This document shows positions 12,268 through 62,250 of a stretch of DNA of 64,000 bases, in pieces (the first letter of the stretch is position 1; every line of letters begins with the position of its first letter). Location of the stretch: the NCBI GenBank assembly GCA_026066175.1, contig GCA_026066175.1_4721.1; one strand, 5' to 3'. The stretch comes from a phage. A program made the position numbers and the translations under genes. The notes beneath the pieces were generated by a model, which saw nothing but the letters and a program-made list of their open reading frames with translations, was not told the origin of the DNA and ran no database searches.

Positions 12268-12338
12268 CCTAGCATCCTCTTGTGTTGGATTGATTTCTAA
12301 ACATCTAGGTGAAGCATATTACTGCTTTGCTTCACCTT

Positions 12339-12370
12339 GGTAATATAGCCGTGAAAATTATTGTATTAGC
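12339..12370 (-). promoter_or_regulatory. Promoter-like motif, copy 1 (GCTAATACAATAATTTTCACGGCTATATTACC on the minus strand)
   Basis: Shares a near-identical core TTTCACGGCTATATTAC with the copy at 43614-43645; lies ~70 nt upstream of the minus-strand start at 12267. Confidence 0.45.
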
Positions 12371-41794: not shown

Positions 41795-41812
41795 CCCTCC
41801 CCGGAGGGAGGG
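41795..41812 (-). terminator. GC-rich stem-loop with TTCTATGCC tail
   Basis: CCCTCCC / GGGAGGG. Confidence 0.5.
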
Positions 41813-41821
41813 TATGTAATG

Positions 41822-42379
41822 TTATTCCATCCAGACTTCTTCGTCGTAATGGTTCTCTATTGCGTTGCGCCAGAAGCGAACGGTATCCAAACTGATCGGC
41901 GTATAGAAATGTTGATCAACACCGACGTTGAGTCCGTTTGCTTTCGCTAACATACAACGATGGATATGTCCAAACAGATTGAAATACCCTGGGTTTCTTT
42001 CACTGGGTTTATGGCATAACCAATAAGACTCGTCGTTATTGATCGGCAATACCAACGGATGTTCATAAACCGCAGCAAATCCCATATCAAGGAGCTTGTC
42101 GCGGAAAGCATCAAAACTCAACCCGCTCGCCTTGCAGGCGTCCTCGTCCCAATTCCCGAGTACTAACTGAACCTGGATATCAGAACGAATGGCTTCAATG
42201 AACTCGAACTTGCCCCAATCGCCCAGATGCCACAACACGCTGTTCTTAGGGAGATTGTTGATGGCTTTCAGCATGTGTTGGTTCATGTCAGCCACGCTTG
42301 CAAACGGACGACGTGAATACACCCGGGTGCGTTCGCTGTCAAAATGCGTATCTGAAGTAAAGAAGATAGATGGGATCAT
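41822..42379 (-). CDS. Calcineurin-like metallophosphoesterase
   Basis: FFTSDTHFD (D.H), WHLGDWGK (GD), LVLGNWDED (GN.D), LFGHIHR (GH.H). Confidence 0.6.
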   Translation of the reverse strand: MIPSIFFTSDTHFDSERTRVYSRRPFASVADMNQHMLKAINNLPKNSVLWHLGDWGKFEFIEAIRSDIQVQLVLGNWDEDACKASGLSFDAFRDKLLDMGFAAVYEHPLVLPINNDESYWLCHKPSERNPGYFNLFGHIHRCMLAKANGLNVGVDQHFYTPISLDTVRFWRNAIENHYDEEVWME

Positions 42380-42858
42380 CGATCTAATTGCTCCAGAAAT
42401 GCACGCCCTGATTTACTTGCACGCAAATGTTGTTCTGCGGAAGTCAGCAGCACGTCGGTTGGCGTATAGGCTACACTGCCTTTCCACTCCGTCTTCAGCT
42501 TACCCTCTTCGATGCTGAACTGAATCAGTTGTTGGGTGCCAAAATTAAGCGTGTTGGTTGCTGCGCTGAATACACCACCCATCATGCTGTAACCAAAGAC
42601 TTTCGCATCTTCTGCATAGAAGTCGTTGTCGATCAATTTGTTCTGTAGTTCCAGCTGATCGGACGGCAGCAGTCCACCATCAAAGACACTTAGAATACCG
42701 GCTAAGCGATAAATACTCACCTTTCCTGAAACACCCACCACGTAATTGCCGTATGGTGTTTCCTCAAGCTTCGCGACGACGGTGCGATCATCGGAGGTTT
42801 TCATTGAAACCTCAATGCCATCATCGATTTCCGTTAATGTTAAATCAACAATACTCAT
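42376..42858 (-). CDS. Hypothetical protein
   Basis: 160-aa ORF, ATGA-coupled to the phosphoesterase gene. Confidence 0.45.
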   Translation of the reverse strand: MSIVDLTLTEIDDGIEVSMKTSDDRTVVAKLEETPYGNYVVGVSGKVSIYRLAGILSVFDGGLLPSDQLELQNKLIDNDFYAEDAKVFGYSMMGGVFSAATNTLNFGTQQLIQFSIEEGKLKTEWKGSVAYTPTDVLLTSAEQHLRASKSGRAFLEQLDR

Positions 42859-42879
42859 TTGTTTTCTCCGCGTTCATGT

Positions 42880-43566
42880 TTAACACATGATTTCACCATG
42901 TTTCTTTTCAACATACGTATAAACATCATCCAAATAAGCGATGAGTTTATCACGATTCGCACAAAGCGATTTGATCGTTGCAATCTCTTTCGTATAAAGC
43001 TGCTGGCCCAGGGCTGGATAAGTAATCCAAGCATAACCATCAGGTGCGAACTTAGAGATAAGGTAATCGGCGGTTTCCTGTAATGCGAACTCCTTGCTCA
43101 TCTGGCCGTAGCGGTGTTCGATAGCACGAATACCAAAACGTTCACTATCAAGACGACCCATATCCGCCAAACGAAGAACCTGAGAAGCCACAGAACTACG
43201 TGGACCGGAATACGAAGCACGATGTTCAGCAATGAGTACGCGTATCTCCTCGATATCTTCCGGTGTGAAAATATGTTGCTCATTACGAAGTAAGATAATC
43301 GACGCGCGAATACCGCCAATAAGGTGGTGGTATGTTCTGTTCTCATGACAAGCGATATCATGCATGAACGCTGCGGTTAACAGACGACGGCGTTCAACCG
43401 GTCGAATGATACCAACCACATCAGCAAGTTCATTTGCCAGTTCGACAACAGCAAGGACATGTTCTTCTTGATGGGCAAGATCGTTCTTTTTAATGTTATC
43501 AATAACTTCAGTGCGTGTTTCCTGAGATAAGAAATTTAAGCAGTCTAACGAAAATAAAGATTTCAT
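42880..43566 (-). CDS. Putative HD-domain phosphohydrolase
   Basis: AAFMHDIACHE with His residues upstream; weak call. Preceded by promoter-like motif copy 2 and AAGAGG. Confidence 0.4.
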   Translation of the reverse strand: MKSLFSLDCLNFLSQETRTEVIDNIKKNDLAHQEEHVLAVVELANELADVVGIIRPVERRRLLTAAFMHDIACHENRTYHHLIGGIRASIILLRNEQHIFTPEDIEEIRVLIAEHRASYSGPRSSVASQVLRLADMGRLDSERFGIRAIEHRYGQMSKEFALQETADYLISKFAPDGYAWITYPALGQQLYTKEIATIKSLCANRDKLIAYLDDVYTYVEKKHGEIMC

Positions 43567-43613
43567 CGTACGTACCTCTTTGACTGTATTAATAAATCGT
43601 GTTTACTCACGTA

Positions 43614-43645
43614 AGTAATATAGCCGTGAAAGGATTTGTATTGGC
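43614..43645 (-). promoter_or_regulatory. Promoter-like motif, copy 2
   Basis: GCCAATACAAATCCTTTCACGGCTATATTACT on the minus strand, ~48 nt upstream of start 43566. Confidence 0.45.
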
Positions 43646-43709
43646 ACGTTCGACGTTCATCGTATTTTATGGATTGTCGAATGACGTCATTTTAAGGGAC
43701 ATCCCCGGC

Positions 43710-43745
43710 CTCCTCCCCAGGAAAGGTGTGGGGAGGAGTTTTTAC
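43710..43745 (+). terminator. Plus-oriented terminator-like hairpin with T5 tail, ~30 nt before the SNF2 helicase start
   Basis: CTCCTCCCC / GGGGAGGAG followed by TTTTTAC. Confidence 0.5.
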
Positions 43746-43772
43746 CAGACTTTTATTAATTCGAGTGCGAGT

Positions 43773-45854
43773 ATGTTAGATAGAATAAATCGCCTAATGA
43801 ACCGGATAACGGTTAAAAATCAAAGCAACAATACCGTGCATGTTGGGGGTATCGATGCCTGGCGTCTTTCGGACGATATCCAGCGAATCTGGGGTACCTC
43901 TCGGTTTATGAAATATATGTTTCGTAACTTCTCTTCCAGCGGTCTTAGCATTCACAACTTCTATCTGCCTGATTTCGTTTATATTCTTGAAACGATCATT
44001 GATGCAAAGAACACCCGCAGCAACAAGCGGATGCTAAAACGCCTTGTTGAAGTCTTGTTAGAAGAAACCTGGCTGCAAAATACCACCATCGAACAGCCAG
44101 CCATTCTTGATAAAGCGCGCATGAAGAAAATGATGACGCTTTCTTTGTTCGATTATCAAGATGAGTATCTCGACATTTATAACCGCAACGTTCCGAAATA
44201 TCGATTAAAAGGCCATGTGTGTGCGATGGGTGCCGGGGCGGGTAAAACAATTACCGCGTTGGCGTTAAGCGCTGCCTTGGGTGTTGACGTCTTCGTGGCA
44301 TGCTGTCCTAAGAACACCATGCGTTCGGCATGGCAATCAGATTTACATAAAGCGCTTGTGGATCCTGCAACCGAATCCGCATTCTGGTCTGATGTGATGC
44401 CCCCAACCCAGTTACAGAAAAGCGATAAATATTACTTCCTGCATTACGAGCAGATGGGATTGTTAAACGAGATCATGCTCAAGCATAAACGCACAGCAAA
44501 ACGTGTGTTGATCGTTGTCGATGAAAGCCATAACTTCAACGATAAGAACAGTCAACGTTCTCAGCGTTTGGTTGATCTGGTACAGACGATGCGTCAAACC
44601 ATGAATGCGGACATACATGTCTTATTTATGTCGGGTACGCCTGTTAAACAGATGGGTTCTGAAATGATCCCATGTTTAGGTTGCATTGACCCGATGTTCC
44701 AAGGCCAGGTGGTTGATAGCTTCAAGTCGATTTACGGTTTAACCAGCAGTCGTGCTAATGATATCTTAAGGCATCGTCTTGGATTCATGATGCATGTCGT
44801 ACCCAAAGAAGCTTACCGTAAGACACGGCCTGAGGTTCAGGACGTATACGTGAAACTGCCTAACGGTAGTGATTACACCATCTCAAGTATCCGTGACGAT
44901 ATGGCGGTGTTTGTGCGTGACCGTGCAAAATACTACAAAGATAACTGGGGGCATTACCGGAAGATTTTCGATGATGCGCTGGATTTCTATCGTCGGACCA
45001 TACGGACGGAAGGTGAGCGTAAAGAACTGTCTCGTTATGAATCCATCGTCGCCCGCTTTCAGAAAGGTTACGATCCTGTCAGGGATAAAGAAGACGCCAT
45101 GTTCTGCAACGTGTTCGAGAAACGAGCGATCATGCCGATTCTTCCTCCCGATTTACGGATTGCGTTCAAAGACGCCAAAAGCGTCATCAAGTACGTCGGA
45201 TTGAAGATTCAAGGGGAAGCCTTGGCAAGGGTTCTTGGCGCAGCGCGCATTCAATGCCACGTTGATATGGTCGAGTATATCGATTTTGAAGGGTATATCA
45301 ACAATGCTGAAGCCAAAGTGCTGATCTTCACGTCATACGTTCAGGTAGTTGAACGCGTTGATAACCTGCTTCGCGATGCGGGCTTCTTACCAGAACCGAT
45401 CTACGGGAAGACCAACAAGAACATTAACCAGATCCTCGCGCGATTACGCGATGATCCTGACAGCGGTCCCGCTATCGCAACCTTTGATAGTTTAGCGGAA
45501 GGGGTTCCTATGTTAATGTGTAACGTCGGCCTTTTCTTAAATAACCCCTGGCGTTCCTCCGATGAGATCCAAGCCATCAGTCGTCTCGACCGTGTTGGTC
45601 AAACCCAACCTGTTCGTATCTATCGTTTCATGCTGGATACTGGCAGCGAAGGTAACGTTTCAACACGAAGCCAAGAGATCATGGAGTTAAGTCGTCAGCT
45701 GGTTGAAGAAATCACAGGTGTTAAATACAATGTGAATAAACAAGCCGACGTTAACCTACAAGAAACGCTGGCTATGGAAGGGTACGATAGATACTTGACG
45801 ATTAATACCCCTGGGTTTGAAATCAAACCGCGTTCCACGTTCTTAGAATGGTAA
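43773..45854 (+). CDS. SNF2-family (SF2) helicase/ATPase
   Basis: Motif I CAMGAGAGKT, motif II VVDESHNF, motif III MSGTPVKQ; start placed at ATG 43773 (MLDRINRL) because the track ORF begins with GTG at 43599 and would translate through a terminator-like hairpin. Confidence 0.7.
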   Translation: MLDRINRLMNRITVKNQSNNTVHVGGIDAWRLSDDIQRIWGTSRFMKYMFRNFSSSGLSIHNFYLPDFVYILETIIDAKNTRSNKRMLKRLVEVLLEETWLQNTTIEQPAILDKARMKKMMTLSLFDYQDEYLDIYNRNVPKYRLKGHVCAMGAGAGKTITALALSAALGVDVFVACCPKNTMRSAWQSDLHKALVDPATESAFWSDVMPPTQLQKSDKYYFLHYEQMGLLNEIMLKHKRTAKRVLIVVDESHNFNDKNSQRSQRLVDLVQTMRQTMNADIHVLFMSGTPVKQMGSEMIPCLGCIDPMFQGQVVDSFKSIYGLTSSRANDILRHRLGFMMHVVPKEAYRKTRPEVQDVYVKLPNGSDYTISSIRDDMAVFVRDRAKYYKDNWGHYRKIFDDALDFYRRTIRTEGERKELSRYESIVARFQKGYDPVRDKEDAMFCNVFEKRAIMPILPPDLRIAFKDAKSVIKYVGLKIQGEALARVLGAARIQCHVDMVEYIDFEGYINNAEAKVLIFTSYVQVVERVDNLLRDAGFLPEPIYGKTNKNINQILARLRDDPDSGPAIATFDSLAEGVPMLMCNVGLFLNNPWRSSDEIQAISRLDRVGQTQPVRIYRFMLDTGSEGNVSTRSQEIMELSRQLVEEITGVKYNVNKQADVNLQETLAMEGYDRYLTINTPGFEIKPRSTFLEW

Positions 45855-45861
45855 TTAAGAA

Positions 45862-45890
45862 GCTCTGCCCGAAGGCAGAGCTTTATGCCG
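45862..45890 (+). terminator. Terminator after the SNF2 helicase gene
   Basis: GCTCTGCC CGAA GGCAGAGC followed by TTTATGCCGG. Confidence 0.6.
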
Positions 45891-45948: not shown

Positions 45949-47403
45949 ATGAAAATCAAACAAAGCTGGAAAGACGAATTACTTGCATTAGTTAACAGCA
46001 AAAACAGTTTACAACTGACATTAGACGACGTAAAGTTTGAATTAACCGAACCGGTAAGCGAAGTGCCCGGAACGGTCGTTGTTACAATCAAACCGAACGA
46101 TAATAGTCGCTACTTTAACGAGCAGTCTCTGACCTACGTCCGTCGAGACATTGCTAAAAACTTCACCGGGATTCCGTTACGGGTTATCGTTAAGCAAGAT
46201 ACCGCTGTAAGGGATATCATCAATACGATTGCTGAACGTTACGGATTGGTATTTGACACAACCGTCGACTTCCTCGAATCAGAGCTGAATAAACAAATTA
46301 CTTTCGCAGACACCGGTATTAAAGACGTTACTGTTCCGGTTGCAAACACGTCTTATGTTTGGGCTGGTAATCTTCAGTTCAATATTGCGAACGATACGTT
46401 AAGCTTGATTACTATCATCAAGAAAACCAATCTTACGAATCTGGTTTATCTGGATGGTGTTGAAGCTGACACATCGGGGTCGTTACTGTTAGCCACCACA
46501 GCACTTGTTAACGATAGCGTAAATAAGCCGATGGTTGAAAACGAAGATATCGTCGATGAATTCTACAACGTTCTTAATGCTCTAGCCAAATATGGTGACA
46601 TAACTGGCGATGAATTAAATGCCGCCTTACATGCGTACGATGAAGCAGAAAACAGGAATAAAACCACGGTAATAACTCTTGGTGATATCCAGTGTGTTGC
46701 AACAGAAAAAGACGATTGGGAAATTGGACGTTTACGCGGTCAGATGGTTCTCGCGCTCAAATCCGACAAACAACCTGAGCGCGAGAACACGTTAAGGTTG
46801 TTTACGAATGGCGGTGACGTCTCACTAACGTTAAACACAATGAAAGATATCAGTATCGATTGGGGTGATGGGAATAAAGTAACGTTGGATGCTGAAGAAA
46901 GATACGCGCACCACACATACGCCGACAATAACCAGTACCAAATCGAAATTGTGTCTCGTACGGACCCAGATGTGCTGCGACCAAATTATATTTCTGGGAG
47001 TGAGATAACCGAAGTAATTCACTGGGCTACTACTTCAACAATAGCTCTGAATTTTGTTGGATGCGATAATTTAGCGACTGTTCCAGATGAGATCCCAACT
47101 TCGTGGACAACGTTGGACAGCATGTTTGAAAGTTGTACGAATTTGAATGATCCGTCTATCTCTAACTGGAATACAAGTAACATCACATCAATGAATGGTA
47201 TGTTCGGCGGATGCACTAAATTTAACCAACCTTTAGCTGCCTGGGATGTCAGCTCAGTAACTGACATTGGTGGTATGTTTGTCGGATGTGACAGTTTTAA
47301 CCAAGATTTAAGTGGGTGGCGATTACCGTCAGGAGTAAACCACACCAATTACGATGATGGTGCTTTCTCGTGGCAGACGGAACATAAACCGACATTCCAG
47401 TAA
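45949..47403 (+). CDS. Fibre / receptor-binding-like protein with C-terminal DUF285-type repeats (paralog of 32-1786)
   Basis: N-terminal ~150 aa aligns closely with 32-1786; C-terminal ITSMNGMFGGCTKFNQPLAAWDVSSVTDIGGMFVGCDSFNQDLSGW repeats. Confidence 0.6.
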   Translation: MKIKQSWKDELLALVNSKNSLQLTLDDVKFELTEPVSEVPGTVVVTIKPNDNSRYFNEQSLTYVRRDIAKNFTGIPLRVIVKQDTAVRDIINTIAERYGLVFDTTVDFLESELNKQITFADTGIKDVTVPVANTSYVWAGNLQFNIANDTLSLITIIKKTNLTNLVYLDGVEADTSGSLLLATTALVNDSVNKPMVENEDIVDEFYNVLNALAKYGDITGDELNAALHAYDEAENRNKTTVITLGDIQCVATEKDDWEIGRLRGQMVLALKSDKQPERENTLRLFTNGGDVSLTLNTMKDISIDWGDGNKVTLDAEERYAHHTYADNNQYQIEIVSRTDPDVLRPNYISGSEITEVIHWATTSTIALNFVGCDNLATVPDEIPTSWTTLDSMFESCTNLNDPSISNWNTSNITSMNGMFGGCTKFNQPLAAWDVSSVTDIGGMFVGCDSFNQDLSGWRLPSGVNHTNYDDGAFSWQTEHKPTFQ

Positions 47404-48749: not shown

Positions 48750-51011
48750 TTACAATTCGAAATCTTCATCGATAACGCGTTGGGTTAGCACCTTGTCGCT
48801 GAAGAACTCCACCTTACGTTGATGGTATTTCCGATGTGCTTCAATCGACGTACACACCAGATACCAGAACGTGGGTGTCATACCCTCGAACTTCCCTTTC
48901 AGCTGACGTAGTCGACCTAACACCTGAATGTTACCAGTTCTCGACCCCATCGCTAACGTCATGAACGTCATCACCAAGTCAGGAAGATCGATTCCTGTAC
49001 CAGCCGATTTTACCGTTGTCACACTGATATCATTATCCAGTAACACCATGAAATCTTCTTCAGCGGTATAAGGACCTATCTCCAACTCAGGGATACGTTC
49101 ACTTAAGTAATGCGATAACGACTTGCACATATCAACGGTTGCACAATACACCAACATCTTCATGCCTTCCTGATATTGGTTCATGAAACCTTTGATAATA
49201 ACCGTATAGATAAAGTTGAAATAGGCGAGTTTGAGTTGCTTATTCTTCATGATAGACTGTTCGAATACCGTGTGAGAATAAGAACCTCCAAAGCCTTTGT
49301 ATCGGACTTTATCCGTACTGCGTAGTCGATACGTCACCGCATTTACCGCGATGTATTTCTTGTATTCACATTTCGCATAACGTGCTTCTTTCGGATACAT
49401 CAAATACAGCATCCGCTCGATGAACGGATCGTCAGACACCGCCGTTGCCGACAGATAAATGATTTCCGGAATATTCGCGTAACACTTCACTTTGAACAAG
49501 AAATGCAGAGCTTCGTGACATTCATCGTGGATTAACAATCCAATGCCTGTTTTCTCCCAGAACTCGACTGGATGGAAAACATAAGGTGCGACACAGTTGT
49601 TCTTTTCATAATCGGTTATATAACGCTGAAACATGTTCAGTGAGAATAACGCAATTTTGAAATCCAACTCACCTTGTTCTACCAACGTCTGAAATTCCAA
49701 CATGCTGTAACGAGGAATGTCGGGATGCGGTGGGTCAGACTGGGCTGTACCACGTATCTCGATAACATCACCTGGTTCCATACCGAAGAAACTTAGCAGT
49801 GAGCTACGCCATCCAGGCATGTACCTCGGTGACAGAATGATGCCCGTCCGTACACCACGTCGGAAGGTGATCTCCTGCGACATTGCGGTGTTGTGCGTGA
49901 CGATATGGTCTTTAATAACATAAAGGCTTTCGTCGTTGTCCACCGTGATGCAACGTGCCTTCGCTTTCACCGTCGGCACGATGCCGCCAATCGCTAAACC
50001 AGGAAGCGTGTTAACGGGAAGATCATCTGGAATCTCAATGCCGTCAGGAATAAGCTTAAGCAAATCGGAATGGTAAATTAATGTCTCCATCGTGTAACTA
50101 TTGATGGGGCATTTATACGCGATTCCCCCTAACCGATAAGCCAACTCCCAGACCTCGGTCATTATCTGCGAATCGGTGGTTCTGACCGCAAGGTGAGCCC
50201 ACCCTTCTTCAACACGCAGCACGCAACGATCTTTGATGAGTTCTCTGAAACGATCAAGACCCACGAGTTCTTTCGGTTCGTAAAGTCGGATTCTTACCGG
50301 ACGAGATCGTGACGATCTGTCATTAAGACGTTCCATGATTTCACTCGTGCTGAGCACCTTGTCAGGATCCGTGCATTGCCAGAGATGATCACCACACGCT
50401 TCAACCATTCGTCCATCTTCAAAGAAGACAGCGTAAAGCTGAATATCGTCATGATCAAAGATAGCAGTTACGTTCGTCGGTAAACCATCCGCGCCGATGA
50501 CCTCATCACCCACCTGGAGCTCACCAATCGGCTTCCAACCGCTTGGAACCTTAACGGGTGTATGGAGAGCCAATGCTTTCCCAGACCCCGTGCCTGCGGT
50601 GTTTAGGCTCATTCTGAAAGGGGTATCCTTACCCCCATCCATGTACTCCAACCATTCTTGCTGATCTTCACGCCACGGAAACTTCCAGTTCTTCACAAAC
50701 TCCACTTCCTTACCTGGAACCGGATCGTGGTAAACGATTTCCAACCACTCCTTTCGAATTCCTCGAGAAAAGATAAAATCCAAAAACGACTTCAGCTGTT
50801 CACGAAGTAAGTAGACCTCGCTATAATCGCTTCTTGCTGCGGCGTAGGTGTTGATGGTATCGGTGACCATTCTCCGTGTACGAGGGTCGCGTCGTTTCCG
50901 TAGATGCAAACAACGGTCTCGAAGGTAATGGCCAATCAAATGGGCAAATCGAAGTCCGTATCCGCTCAGCTTCATGCCATGCGAGAAGACGTCGATACGA
51001 GCTAACTTCAT
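48750..51011 (-). CDS. SF2 (DExH) helicase carrying an intein-like insertion in motif I
   Basis: Host motifs NTAGTGSGK | T (AGTGSGKT after excision), LLIHDECHEA, YLSATA, SAGTGIDLPDLV; about 229 aa inserted between K and T. Confidence 0.65.
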   Translation of the reverse strand: MKLARIDVFSHGMKLSGYGLRFAHLIGHYLRDRCLHLRKRRDPRTRRMVTDTINTYAAARSDYSEVYLLREQLKSFLDFIFSRGIRKEWLEIVYHDPVPGKEVEFVKNWKFPWREDQQEWLEYMDGGKDTPFRMSLNTAGTGSGKALALHTPVKVPSGWKPIGELQVGDEVIGADGLPTNVTAIFDHDDIQLYAVFFEDGRMVEACGDHLWQCTDPDKVLSTSEIMERLNDRSSRSRPVRIRLYEPKELVGLDRFRELIKDRCVLRVEEGWAHLAVRTTDSQIMTEVWELAYRLGGIAYKCPINSYTMETLIYHSDLLKLIPDGIEIPDDLPVNTLPGLAIGGIVPTVKAKARCITVDNDESLYVIKDHIVTHNTAMSQEITFRRGVRTGIILSPRYMPGWRSSLLSFFGMEPGDVIEIRGTAQSDPPHPDIPRYSMLEFQTLVEQGELDFKIALFSLNMFQRYITDYEKNNCVAPYVFHPVEFWEKTGIGLLIHDECHEALHFLFKVKCYANIPEIIYLSATAVSDDPFIERMLYLMYPKEARYAKCEYKKYIAVNAVTYRLRSTDKVRYKGFGGSYSHTVFEQSIMKNKQLKLAYFNFIYTVIIKGFMNQYQEGMKMLVYCATVDMCKSLSHYLSERIPELEIGPYTAEEDFMVLLDNDISVTTVKSAGTGIDLPDLVMTFMTLAMGSRTGNIQVLGRLRQLKGKFEGMTPTFWYLVCTSIEAHRKYHQRKVEFFSDKVLTQRVIDEDFEL
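49890..50576 (-). mobile_element. Intein-like element inside helicase motif I (protein residues ~146-374)
   Basis: Begins ALALHTPVKVPSGWKPIGELQVGDEV and ends CITVDNDESLYVIKDHIVTHN followed by Thr; removing it restores AGTGSGKT. Confidence 0.55.
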
Positions 51012-62164: not shown

Positions 62165-62218
62165 AACAACCTCTTTTCGCGGTTCCCTGTTAAACGTTTT
62201 CTATAACGCCATCAAGGA

Positions 62219-62250
62219 GGTAATATAAGCGTGAATAATTTTGGATTCCT
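62219..62250 (-). promoter_or_regulatory. Promoter-like motif, copy 3 (degenerate)
   Basis: AGGAATCCAAAATTATTCACGCTTATATTACC on the minus strand, ~55 nt upstream of start 62164. Confidence 0.35.

What the first reader, a model, noticed from the sequence alone, without database searches (positions are those of the whole stretch)
41822..45854. Divergent unit: metallophosphoesterase, coupled ORF and HD-like protein leftward, SNF2 helicase rightward
A metallophosphoesterase (DxH / GD / GNxD / GH.H motifs), an ATGA-coupled 160-aa ORF and a putative HD phosphohydrolase are transcribed leftward from promoter-like motif copy 2, while an SNF2-type helicase is transcribed rightward from the same intergenic region. 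Phosphoesterase, HD hydrolase and SNF2 ATPase combinations recur in nucleic-acid defence and counter-defence systems; the grouping could be functional or coincidental.
Basis: inference. Interest (0 to 1): 0.45.

Follow-up and report, generated by a model that had tools for sequence, protein, structure and literature searches.

The report
Goslar-type phage early and virion genes
The four genes are real and correctly typed, but they are the already-annotated gp157–gp160 genes of a Goslar-like nucleus-forming jumbo phage. They look like a lineage-specific juxtaposition of an early enzyme gene, two probable virion-cargo genes and a virion-packaged helicase, not a recognisable defence or counter-defence module.

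Summary
The window comes from a Goslar-like chimallivirus, 83.8% nucleotide identity to Escherichia phage Goslar. All four ORFs exist.

**Domain calls**
- Metallophosphoesterase and HD pass Pfam's gathering scores.
- For the helicase, ResIII and Helicase_C pass; the SNF2 model is 0.3 bit short.
- The helicase starts at ATG 43773, not GTG 43599.

**Linkage**
- The layout is kept only in the Goslar-like clade (three deep lineages).
- In 14 other chimalliviruses, HD and helicase lie 12–49 kb apart.
- No metallophosphoesterase or 160-aa ORF homologue was detected in any other chimallivirus.
- No defence-system model matches above domain level.

**Expression**
- The repeated motif is the chimallivirus early-promoter box TATATTAC. 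It also precedes chimallin and an nvRNAP subunit gene, and here it faces left toward HD.

**Published Goslar virion mass spectrometry** (estimated copies per virion)
- 160-aa ORF product: ~930
- Phosphoesterase: ~75
- Helicase: ~11, similar to the virion RNA polymerase subunits
- HD: ~1

**New observation**
An 85-nt non-coding block (43661–43745) lies just upstream of the helicase. It contains a TATG, a conserved loop motif, a hairpin and a U-run. Motif and layout are conserved across the three lineages, with a different terminator stem in each. It may be a leader or small RNA.

The cluster is ordinary and mostly already known. The virion-cargo reading and the RNA element are the only modestly novel leads.

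The parts
41822..42379 (-). Metallophosphoesterase (185 aa), orthologue of Goslar gp157. It belongs to the Aq_1665/COG4186-type binuclear MPE family.
   Evidence: Pfam PF12850 E 4e-7 and phrog_547 E 2.5e-30. It is 92% identical to Goslar. A family profile matches PDB 1xm7 at E 9e-13. The AF2 model has pLDDT 96.5, and Foldseek matches 1xm7 at E 6.9e-10. Goslar virion MS estimates ~75 copies per virion.
42376..42858 (-). 160-aa acidic protein of unknown fold, orthologue of Goslar gp158. It is restricted to the Goslar-like clade.
   Evidence: No hit in Pfam, PHROG, NCBIfam or PADLOC. Only Goslar matches in the phage database. An exhaustive HMMER search found 3 relatives, all in Goslar-like contigs, plus one weak hit to a repeat protein. 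Goslar virion MS estimates ~926 copies per virion, with the accession mass matching my translation.
42880..43566 (-). HD-domain phosphohydrolase (228 aa), orthologue of Goslar gp159, of the YedJ/YpgQ-like type.
   Evidence: Pfam PF01966 E 1.5e-7 and phrog_3921 E 2.2e-31. A family profile matches PDB 2pq7 at E 3.8e-7 and YedJ 3gw7 at E 2.2e-6. The AF2 model has pLDDT 90.7 with generic HD-fold matches including YpgQ. It is present in 97 phage records, in some lying beside or near thymidylate synthase or DHFR. It is only ~1 copy per virion in Goslar MS.
41795..41812 (-). GC-rich hairpin immediately after the MPE stop codon. It is a possible end of the orf160-MPE unit.
   Evidence: Sequence CCCTCCC..GGGAGGG. 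In lineage B (L018) the same position holds a strong hairpin plus T5 terminator, followed by a new early-promoter-like box.
43607..43645 (-). Chimallivirus early (virion RNA polymerase) promoter motif, with the TATATTAC box at 43615-43622. It drives the HD gene leftward.
   Evidence: Three copies in the window, all on the minus strand and all upstream of minus-strand genes. In Goslar the same box precedes chimallin gp189 and the nvRNAP subunit gene gp175. It matches the published phiKZ and 201phi2-1 promoter consensus TTTRARR-BTATATTAC...GTG (PMC7058600). It is invariant in six Goslar-like genomes.
43661..43745 (+). Conserved non-coding block containing TATG (43668-43671), a 5' stem with the loop motif UGUCGAAUGA, a 10-bp GC hairpin (43710-43738) and a U-run (43739-43743). 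It is a candidate ~73-nt leader or small RNA, or a terminator, just upstream of the helicase.
   Evidence: It is almost 100% identical in six genomes against a ~85% background. Motif and architecture are kept in the distant lineages L018/L019 and L021, with a different terminator stem in each. The motif occurs once in the 64-kb window. There is no Rfam match. Goslar's record annotates a terminator here.
43773..45854 (+). SNF2-family SF2 ATPase/helicase (693 aa, corrected start), orthologue of Goslar gp160 and RAY gp131.
   Evidence: ResIII, Helicase_C and SNF2-rel_dom hits. phrog_62 E 4e-88. PDB SNF2 C-lobe hits at E 3e-7. It is 35% identical over 97% of its length to RAY gp131, which is annotated 'virion-associated SWI/SNF family helicase'. 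RAY gp131-GFP localises with capsids (PMC10299810). Goslar MS estimates ~10.6 copies per virion, against 7-21 for vRNAP subunits.
45861..45882 (+). Hairpin (AGCTCTGCC-cgaa-GGCAGAGCT, followed by TTTAT) after the helicase stop codon.
   Evidence: Sequence. Goslar annotates a terminator at the equivalent site.
45949..47403 (+). DUF7941 + DUF285/BspA-like repeat virion protein (484 aa), orthologue of Goslar gp161. It is co-oriented with the helicase.
   Evidence: Pfam DUF7941 E 2e-25 and DUF285 E 2.6e-25. Goslar MS estimates ~111 copies per virion, and the authors propose a role in host recognition. The C-terminal half is strongly diverged from Goslar.

Best explanation
This is the gp157-gp161 region of a Goslar-like nucleus-forming jumbo phage (Chimalliviridae). 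It is a boundary between transcription units, not one functional module.

**Leftward unit**
A virion-RNA-polymerase early promoter (TATATTAC box) drives a YedJ/YpgQ-like HD phosphohydrolase. By inference this enzyme acts on the nucleotide pool and is not packaged. Downstream lie a clade-specific acidic 160-aa protein and an Aq_1665-type metallophosphoesterase. Both of these are recovered from purified Goslar virions and are probably capsid cargo.

**Rightward unit**
A short reverse-strand island encodes an SNF2-family ATPase packaged at about the same copy number as the virion RNA polymerase. A DUF7941 host-recognition protein follows it.

**Shown versus inferred**
- Shown: gene identities, promoter identity, lack of linkage outside the clade, and virion detection (published MS and GFP localisation).
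- Inferred: after ejection the helicase works on the incoming DNA or with the virion RNA polymerase, in the manner of RapA or poxvirus NPH-I, and the phosphoesterase acts on a nucleotide or nucleic-acid-end substrate early in infection.
- Inferred: the helicase gene is preceded by a conserved TATG-hairpin-U-run element that probably yields a short leader or small RNA and limits helicase expression.
For: **Identity of the region**
- 83.8% nucleotide identity to Goslar across the whole region, with the same annotation.
- All domain calls verified.

**Promoter**
- The promoter box is identical to those upstream of chimallin and the nvRNAP subunit gene gp175.
- It matches the published chimallivirus promoter consensus. 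The review's general rule is that such motifs mark early operons.

**Linkage**
- HD and helicase are unlinked in 14 other chimalliviruses.
- HD lies beside DHFR and ThyA in phage pTD1 and within about 5 kb of thymidylate synthase in RAY and SA002.
- In lineage B, dUTPase and ThyA genes lie downstream on the same contig.
- MPE homologues elsewhere sit among gyrase, dCMP deaminase, RNase H, NT5C, ThyX, RNR, Thg1 or CCA-adding enzyme genes. Two are fused to a nucleoside 2-deoxyribosyltransferase-like domain.

**Virion association**
- Goslar virion MS estimates gp158 ~926, gp157 ~75, gp160 ~10.6, gp161 ~111 and gp159 ~1.1 copies per virion, against 7-21 for vRNAP subunits. I checked the identities by protein mass.
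- RAY gp131-GFP co-localises with capsids, and a PhiPA3 SNF2 helicase localises to phage bouquets.

**Gene layout**
- In Proteus phage 10, RAY and Eowyn the helicase is likewise a reverse-strand island.
- In lineage B, HD has its own terminator and orf160-MPE are bracketed by terminators.
- The conserved leader-like block is supported.
Against: - Virion association of gp157 and gp158 rests on a single MS data set. That data set also contains chimallin (~126 'copies') and thymidylate synthase (~20), which shows carry-over of non-virion proteins. Neither protein was validated by GFP.
- Abundant virion proteins sitting directly behind an early promoter, with no terminator between them in lineage A, is unexpected.
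- The five-gene layout is conserved at 34-63% protein identity. That could reflect functional linkage rather than general collinearity.
- No substrate is known for the MPE (its nearest structure, 1xm7, has unknown function) or for this HD subfamily.
- No transcript data exist for Goslar-like phages, so the promoter class, the leader RNA and the gene timing are all inferred.
Confidence: 0.6

Rival explanations
1. One reading: MPE, the coupled ORF, HD and the SNF2 ATPase form one functional nucleic-acid defence or counter-defence module expressed from a shared divergent control region.
For: - Adjacency is kept in three deep Goslar-like lineages despite 34-63% protein identity.
- Three of the products are detected in virions and so could be delivered together.
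- SNF2 helicases and phosphoesterases do occur in defence systems, as shown by domain-level PADLOC hits to DrmD, BrxH, ZorD and DpdE.
- RefSeq names some Vibrio phage orthologues 'DarB-like antirestriction'.
Against: - Outside the clade the genes are unlinked or absent.
- The whole neighbourhood is collinear among Goslar-like genomes, so local synteny is not specific to these genes.
- HD is essentially absent from virions while the others are present.
- The promoter motif serves only the leftward genes.
- The ATGA coupling is not conserved.
- Family-level defence models are missed by a wide margin (36.5 against 610 bits).
- MPE homologues elsewhere have DNA/RNA-metabolism neighbours, never HD or SNF2.
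Confidence: 0.12
2. None of the leftward products is true virion cargo. HD, the 160-aa protein and MPE are simply abundant early cytoplasmic or nuclear accessory proteins (nucleotide or RNA-end metabolism) that co-purify with virions. Only the helicase and the DUF7941 protein are structural.
For: - The early-promoter box lies directly upstream, with no terminator before orf160 in lineage A.
- The MS preparation demonstrably contains chimallin, PhuZ and thymidylate synthase.
- MPE homologues in other phages sit in early DNA/RNA-metabolism blocks.
Against: - gp158 at ~926 copies exceeds chimallin carry-over about seven-fold and ranks second among unmodelled proteins.
- HD, encoded in the same operon, is about 800-fold lower than gp158.
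- In lineage B, orf160-MPE are set apart from HD by a terminator.
Confidence: 0.2
3. The conserved 43661-43745 block is not an RNA gene or leader. It acts at the DNA level or purely as an insulator: a terminator that shields the helicase gene from stray rightward transcription, or a protein-binding site (palindrome ATGACGTCAT) that regulates the adjacent early promoter.
For: - Goslar's record annotates it simply as a terminator.
- The palindrome also occurs in the chimallin leader.
- TATG is only a 4-mer.
- The plus-strand fold z-score is weak at -1.47.
- Only three independent lineages are available, so covariation is thin.
Against: - No rightward genes lie upstream that would need terminating.
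- The motif-to-early-promoter distance varies from 24 to 48 nt, while the motif-to-hairpin distance is steady at 24-30 nt.
- The palindrome itself is not conserved in lineages B and C, whereas UGUCGAAUGA and the 5' stem are.
Confidence: 0.35

Closest known systems
Escherichia phage vB_EcoM_Goslar gp157-gp161 (MK327938.1 140999-146585)
   Same: Same genes, order and strands. Protein identity is 92-96% for gp157-160 and 61% for gp161. The intergenic elements are the same.
   Different: Overall nucleotide identity is about 84%, so this is probably a different species. The C-terminal half of gp161 is replaced or strongly diverged. The neighbouring SF2 helicase carries an intein here.
Erwinia phage RAY gp131, virion-associated SWI/SNF-family helicase (Prichard et al. 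2023)
   Same: Full-length orthologue, 35% identical over 97% of its length. It is also a reverse-strand island, and it localises with capsids.
   Different: In RAY it lies 36 kb from the HD gene, has no MPE or gp158 neighbour, and has no TATG-hairpin leader upstream.
Bacterial RapA and poxvirus NPH-I (SNF2-family ATPases that work with an RNA polymerase)
   Same: SNF2-type ATPase core. Like NPH-I it is packaged with a virion RNA polymerase, and at a similar copy number. Iyer et al. proposed a RapA-like role for another chimallivirus SF2 helicase.
   Different: There is only a trace sequence match to RapA (E 0.003, 15.8 against 576 bits). No interaction with vRNAP has been shown. This is a functional analogy only.
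Aquifex aeolicus Aq_1665 (PDB 1xm7) / COG4186 metallophosphoesterases
   Same: Best sequence-profile match (E 9e-13) and best fold match (E 6.9e-10). All metal-ligand motifs are shared.
   Different: 1xm7 itself has no known function. The phage protein is shorter around the C-terminal insert and has W in place of the usual H in the GNHD motif.
E. coli YedJ (3gw7), B. subtilis YpgQ (5dqw) and 2pq7 HD hydrolases
   Same: Stand-alone HD domain with the N-terminal D-x-A-H...H, HD, EHR-S and AD-G motifs. These are the best profile and fold matches.
   Different: Identity is only 17-22%, the Foldseek E-values are about 1e-2, and there is an extra C-terminal helical region. Substrate has not been tested.
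phiKZ / 201phi2-1 early promoters (TATATTAC consensus)
   Same: The box and flanks TTTCAcGGC-TATATTAC-ttacGTG fit the published consensus.
   Different: No transcription start has been mapped in any Goslar-like phage.

Membership tests
Calcineurin-like metallophosphoesterase superfamily (Pfam PF12850/PF00149) | Profile score above Pfam's gathering cut-off | tested here: met
   PF12850 scores 30.6 bits against 27. PF00149 scores 16.7 against 21.5, which is below cut-off.
Calcineurin-like metallophosphoesterase superfamily (Pfam PF12850/PF00149) | Metal-ligand motifs DxH, GD, GNxD/E, H and GHxH | tested here: met
   D10/H12, G53-D54, G75-N76, H123 and G137-H138/H140 are invariant in a 40-sequence alignment.
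Calcineurin-like metallophosphoesterase superfamily (Pfam PF12850/PF00149) | Alpha-beta-beta-alpha sandwich fold | tested here: met
   The AF2 model has pLDDT 96.5. Foldseek finds 1xm7 at E 6.9e-10, followed by the PolD small subunit, Mre11 and PptH.
HD-domain phosphohydrolase superfamily (PF01966) | Profile above cut-off, plus the H...HD...D metal ligands | tested here: met
   32.2 bits against 22. H36, H69-D70, H115 and D135 are invariant across 11 chimallivirus homologues.
HD-domain phosphohydrolase superfamily (PF01966) | Defined substrate class, for example (d)NTP pyrophosphohydrolase as in YpgQ | not testable with these tools
   Only a remote resemblance to YedJ, YpgQ and 2pq7. An enzyme assay is needed.
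SNF2/SWI2 family of SF2 ATPases | SF2 core: Walker A, DExH and the Helicase_C lobe | tested here: met
   ResIII scores 40.5 against 22.5 and Helicase_C 30.3 against 23.5. GAGAGKT at residue 153 and DESH at residue 250.
SNF2/SWI2 family of SF2 ATPases | SNF2-specific N-lobe profile above cut-off, and an SNF2-type motif VI | tested here: inconclusive
   SNF2-rel_dom scores 24.6 against 24.9, just under the cut-off. All of the best PDB matches are SNF2 C-lobes (SWR1 and SMARCA5, E 3e-7). QAISRLDRVGQ is present.
Known defence-system helicases (DISARM DrmD, BREX BrxH, Zorya ZorD, Dpd DpdE) | Full-length match to the family model, plus the system's partner genes nearby | tested here: not met
   NCBIfam DrmD scores 36.5 against 610 and DpdE 21.1 against 500. 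PADLOC hits cover only the helicase lobes. The neighbours are phage virion and early genes.
Chimallivirus virion-associated SNF2 helicase (RAY gp131 / Goslar gp160 group) | Full-length orthology | tested here: met
   92.5% identical to Goslar gp160 and 34.8% over 97% of RAY gp131. There are 205 phage records, 193 of them with at least 80% coverage.
Chimallivirus virion-associated SNF2 helicase (RAY gp131 / Goslar gp160 group) | Presence in the virion | not testable with these tools
   Literature only: ~10.6 copies per Goslar virion and RAY gp131-GFP with capsids.
Chimallivirus early (vRNAP) promoter | Conserved AT-rich box TATATTAC with TTTCA..G upstream and GTG downstream, located upstream of early operons | tested here: met
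   The same box precedes Goslar chimallin and gp175.
Chimallivirus early (vRNAP) promoter | Transcription start about 10 nt downstream, early in infection | not testable with these tools
   No transcript data are available.
Conserved co-functional gene module (guilt by association) | Adjacency retained across distantly related genomes beyond general collinearity | tested here: not met
   Adjacent only in Goslar-like genomes, whose flanking genes are also collinear. HD and helicase lie 12.6-49 kb apart in 14 other chimalliviruses. No MPE or orf160 homologue was detected there.
Rfam RNA families | Covariance-model match for the 43661-43745 element | tested here: not met
   No match at E<=1 in 43400-43900.

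The most novel reading that the evidence does not exclude
The cluster encodes a Goslar-clade set of capsid-packaged, co-ejected proteins that act in the first minutes of infection inside the early-infection vesicle. The set comprises ~900 copies of the acidic 160-aa protein, ~75 copies of a metallophosphoesterase and ~10 copies of an SNF2 ATPase. The phosphoesterase would destroy a host nucleotide signal or heal nucleic-acid ends. The ATPase would serve the virion RNA polymerase. Helicase dosage would be set by a previously undescribed TATG-initiated leader or small RNA with an intrinsic terminator.
Probability: 0.2. Interest if true: 0.65.

Novelty: new member of a known kind. Interest (0 to 1): 0.3.

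Why it matters
As a gene cluster it adds little. It is the Goslar gp157-161 region in a related phage, and the proposed defence-type module is not supported.

Two leads have some value for chimallivirus biology.
- A small phosphoesterase and an orphan acidic protein may be high-copy ejected cargo alongside the virion RNA polymerase and an SNF2 ATPase. This bears on the open question of what these phages inject to survive before the nucleus forms.
- A conserved non-coding element upstream of the virion helicase would be one of the first candidate regulatory RNAs, or attenuators for the phage's own polymerases, in this family.

Tried and rejected
- **N-terminal extension of the helicase from GTG 43599.** Rejected because frame-breaking indels occur among six genomes.
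- **Homology between the 160-aa ORF and the small genes that follow HD in other chimalliviruses** (RisingSun gp239, Miami 243, ACP1, Yubaba, SA002, RAY gp74 and others). tblastn found nothing in the first four loci tested. These genes are not even clearly related to one another, and several have N-terminal hydrophobic segments.
- **Remote homologues of the 160-aa ORF.** Word-indexed and exhaustive HMMER searches found only Goslar-like contigs. There was also one E 3e-6 hit to an 885-aa tandem-repeat protein, which I regard as repeat-inflated.
- **Single-sequence PDB searches for MPE and HD.** They gave nothing useful. Family profiles were needed.
- **The word-indexed protein search for HD.** It returned only the near-identical cluster, so I built the HD alignment from phage tblastn loci instead.
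- **Rfam and tRNA scans of the intergenic region and window.** Nothing found.
- **The leader motif in IMG/VR.** Only Goslar-type genomes, plus three chance matches without hairpins.
- **The leader upstream of helicase orthologues** in Proteus phage 10, RAY and Eowyn. Absent.
- **Sigma-70 promoter scan.** Fewer sites than in shuffled sequence, and not relevant to a phage with its own polymerases.
- **The ATGACGTCAT palindrome as a general regulatory site.** Only two intergenic occurrences in different positions, and it is not conserved in the distant lineages.
- **P1 DarB-like naming.** No Escherichia record other than Goslar matched the helicase at E<=1e-5. It remains an untested lead.

Full report
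**What the window is.** The region 41400-46000 matches Escherichia phage vB_EcoM_Goslar at 83.8% nucleotide identity over its full length. Goslar is a jumbo phage of the nucleus-forming Chimalliviridae. The four ORFs correspond to Goslar gp157 (putative phosphoesterase), gp158 (hypothetical), gp159 (HD hydrolase) and gp160 (helicase), followed by gp161. Protein identities are 92%, 94%, 96%, 92% and 61% respectively. Almost every gene in the 64-kb window is on the minus strand. The helicase and the next gene form a two-gene plus-strand island.

**Checking the observation.**
- The three leftward ORFs are as described, and the ATGA overlap at 42376-42379 is real.
- The metallophosphoesterase passes Pfam's cut-off (PF12850, 30.6 against 27 bits) and matches phrog_547 at 2.5e-30.
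- In a 40-member family alignment all metal-ligand motifs are invariant.
- The family profile finds Aquifex Aq_1665 (PDB 1xm7) at E 9e-13. A pLDDT-96.5 model finds the same structure by Foldseek at E 6.9e-10. That structure has no known function.
- The HD protein passes PF01966 (32.2 against 22 bits). H36, H69-D70, H115 and D135 are invariant across chimallivirus homologues. Its nearest solved relatives are 2pq7 and E. coli YedJ by profile (E 4e-7 and 2e-6). By fold it matches generic HD proteins including YpgQ.
- The helicase has a complete SF2 core with SNF2-type C-lobe matches, though Pfam's SNF2 model falls 0.3 bit short of its cut-off.

One correction is needed. The 751-aa ORF from GTG 43599 is an over-extension. 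Goslar annotates 693 aa. The stretch 43599-43772 carries frame-breaking indels among six Goslar-like genomes, and all of them share the start ATG 43773.

**Is the grouping conserved?** Only within one clade.
- HD homologues occur in 97 phage records, nearly all chimalliviruses. Helicase homologues occur in 205.
- In the 14 non-Goslar genomes listed in both searches, the two genes lie 12.6-49 kb apart. Examples are RAY at 61 against 97 kb and Proteus phage 10 at 46 against 59 kb.
- The phosphoesterase has an unrelated, patchy distribution: Yoloswag-like Erwinia phages, Enterococcus, Bacillus and Streptomyces phages, and a few other jumbo phages. Goslar is the only chimallivirus among them.
- Phosphoesterase homologues in large metagenomic phage contigs sit beside gyrase and dCMP deaminase, beside Thg1 and a CCA-adding enzyme, or beside RNase H, NT5C, ThyX and RNR. 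None sits beside HD or SNF2 genes. Two are fused to a nucleoside 2-deoxyribosyltransferase-like domain.
- The 160-aa ORF has no family assignment. Even in an exhaustive search of 1.8 billion representatives, its only relatives are in Goslar-like contigs.
- Those contigs define two further deep lineages, L018-L020/L030 and L021. Identity to the window is HD 34-39%, ORF 38-39%, MPE about 50% and helicase 58-63%. They keep the same five-gene layout. Their flanking genes are collinear too, so this is clade-wide synteny rather than specific linkage.
- The ATGA coupling is replaced by gaps of 20 and 10 nt in the two distant lineages.
- PADLOC and NCBIfam defence models give only lobe-level helicase hits far below family cut-offs, and nothing for the other three proteins.

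**The control region.**
- Read on the minus strand, its core is CACGGCTATATTAC. Every TATATTAC in the window and in 62 kb of Goslar is on the minus strand, in an intergenic gap upstream of a minus-strand gene. These include chimallin (gp189) and the nvRNAP subunit gene gp175.
- TATATTAC is the published phiKZ promoter box. The longer 201phi2-1 consensus (TTTRARR-BTATATTAC...GTG) fits the copy here.
- Such motifs mark early operons transcribed by the virion RNA polymerase.
- The motif is therefore directional. It drives HD leftward and does not serve the helicase.

**A conserved non-coding element.**
- Between this promoter and the helicase start lies an 85-nt block (43661-43745). It is essentially invariant in six genomes whose flanks are about 85% identical.
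- On the plus strand it reads cATTTTATGG-AT-TGTCGAATGA, then about 25 nt, then a 10-bp GC hairpin (43710-43738) and T5.
- The two distant lineages keep the motif (one copy per locus, one in the whole window) and the spacing to a hairpin plus U-run. The terminator stems differ entirely in sequence. The 5' stem changes from GGAU/AUCC to GGGG/CCCC around the conserved loop.
- The distance to the early promoter is variable, at 24-48 nt.
- TATG is the core of phiKZ late promoters, with the start at the G.
- I read this as a candidate ~73-nt leader or small RNA, or an attenuator, ahead of the helicase. It has no Rfam match. It is absent upstream of the helicase in other genera. With only three lineages and no transcript data, this stays a hypothesis.

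**Published experimental context.**
- None of gp157-gp161 is in the 72-gene chimallivirus core list.
- RAY gp131, the orthologue of the helicase, localises with capsids as a GFP fusion. A PhiPA3 SNF2 helicase localises to phage bouquets.
- A 2026 preprint on the Goslar virion reports label-free MS copy numbers. I matched the accessions to my translations by protein mass. The estimates per virion are:

| Product | Estimated copies per virion | Note |
|---|---|---|
| gp158 | ~926 | Second most abundant unmodelled protein; no fold match per the authors |
| gp157 (phosphoesterase) | ~75 | |
| gp160 (helicase) | ~10.6 | vRNAP subunits are 7-21 |
| gp161 | ~111 | |
| gp159 (HD) | ~1.1 | |

- The same preparation also contains chimallin (~126) and thymidylate synthase (~20). 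Mid-range values therefore do not prove packaging.
- In lineage B, HD is followed by its own terminator, and orf160-MPE are closed off by a strong terminator and a fresh early-promoter-like box. That fits the split between HD (not packaged) and the orf160-MPE pair (packaged). In the window a hairpin follows the MPE at 41795-41812, but no terminator separates HD from orf160.

**Interpretation.** The best-supported reading is a lineage-specific junction of units.
- An early HD enzyme that in other chimalliviruses keeps company with thymidylate synthase, DHFR or dUTPase genes. This points to nucleotide-pool metabolism.
- A two-gene pair (orphan acidic protein and phosphoesterase) whose products are probably capsid cargo.
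- A reverse-strand island encoding the low-copy virion SNF2 ATPase and a host-recognition protein. The helicase is also a reverse-strand island in Proteus phage 10, RAY and Eowyn.

The mechanisms are inferred. The ATPase may assist the co-packaged RNA polymerase or handle incoming DNA. The phosphoesterase may act on a nucleotide or a nucleic-acid end. The defence or counter-defence module idea is not excluded for the packaged proteins, but the comparative evidence does not support it.

**Verdict.** The domain calls are right. The functional grouping is not supported beyond one clade. The cluster is already annotated in Goslar. Interest is modest, resting on the virion-cargo lead and on the conserved leader-like element.

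Noticed in passing
window 48750-51011 (-): The nuclear RAD2/SF2 helicase (Goslar gp164 = phiKZ gp75 = RAY gp250, core gene cg17) is 753 aa here against 524 aa in Goslar. A 229-aa insertion sits exactly inside Walker A (GTGSGK|ALALHTPV...IVTHN|TAMSQ), and the flanks are 98-99% identical. It gives weak Hint and intein-type hits. This is a probable mini-intein with Ala1, a C-terminal HN and Thr+1.
   Followed up: partly
window 46500-47400 (+), C-terminal half of the DUF7941/DUF285 gene: The N-terminal half is 87-97% identical to Goslar gp161 at the nucleotide level, but the C-terminal repeat (BspA/DUF285) half drops to 40-65% with indels. This looks like module exchange or rapid divergence of a host-recognition domain.
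   Followed up: no
L018 3857-6991 and L019 2295-5429 (Goslar-like metagenomic contigs): In lineage B the virion SNF2 helicase is 1044 aa with a Pfam LAGLIDADG_3 hit, so it carries an intein with a homing endonuclease. Several Vibrio and Photobacterium phage orthologues match in two pieces, which suggests similar insertions.
   Followed up: no
window 43681-43690; Goslar L006 12931-12940: The 10-nt palindrome ATGACGTCAT (CRE-like TGACGTCA core) occurs once in the window, inside the conserved block. In the Goslar stretches examined it occurs elsewhere only in the chimallin 5' leader. It is not conserved in the distant Goslar-like lineages.
   Followed up: partly
window 12332-12370 and 62212-62250: These are the other two copies of the early-promoter motif. 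Copy 3 precedes the homologue of Goslar gp175 (an nvRNAP subunit). Hairpins lie just upstream of it, giving a terminator-then-promoter arrangement between consecutive leftward genes.
   Followed up: partly
L007 (NCBI GCA_007609835.1, contig AAIKXK010000039.1): A 36.9-kb Goslar-like phage contig sits in a Salmonella enterica Enteritidis genome assembly, and similar contigs occur in several SRA runs. Goslar-like phages therefore circulate with Salmonella and E. coli samples and contaminate isolate assemblies.
   Followed up: no
Goslar L006 9270-9646: Goslar's record annotates a group I intron with a NUMOD1/HNH endonuclease next to an nvRNAP beta-prime subunit gene. Together with the inteins above, this shows that this clade's transcription and helicase genes are hot spots for selfish elements.
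   Followed up: no
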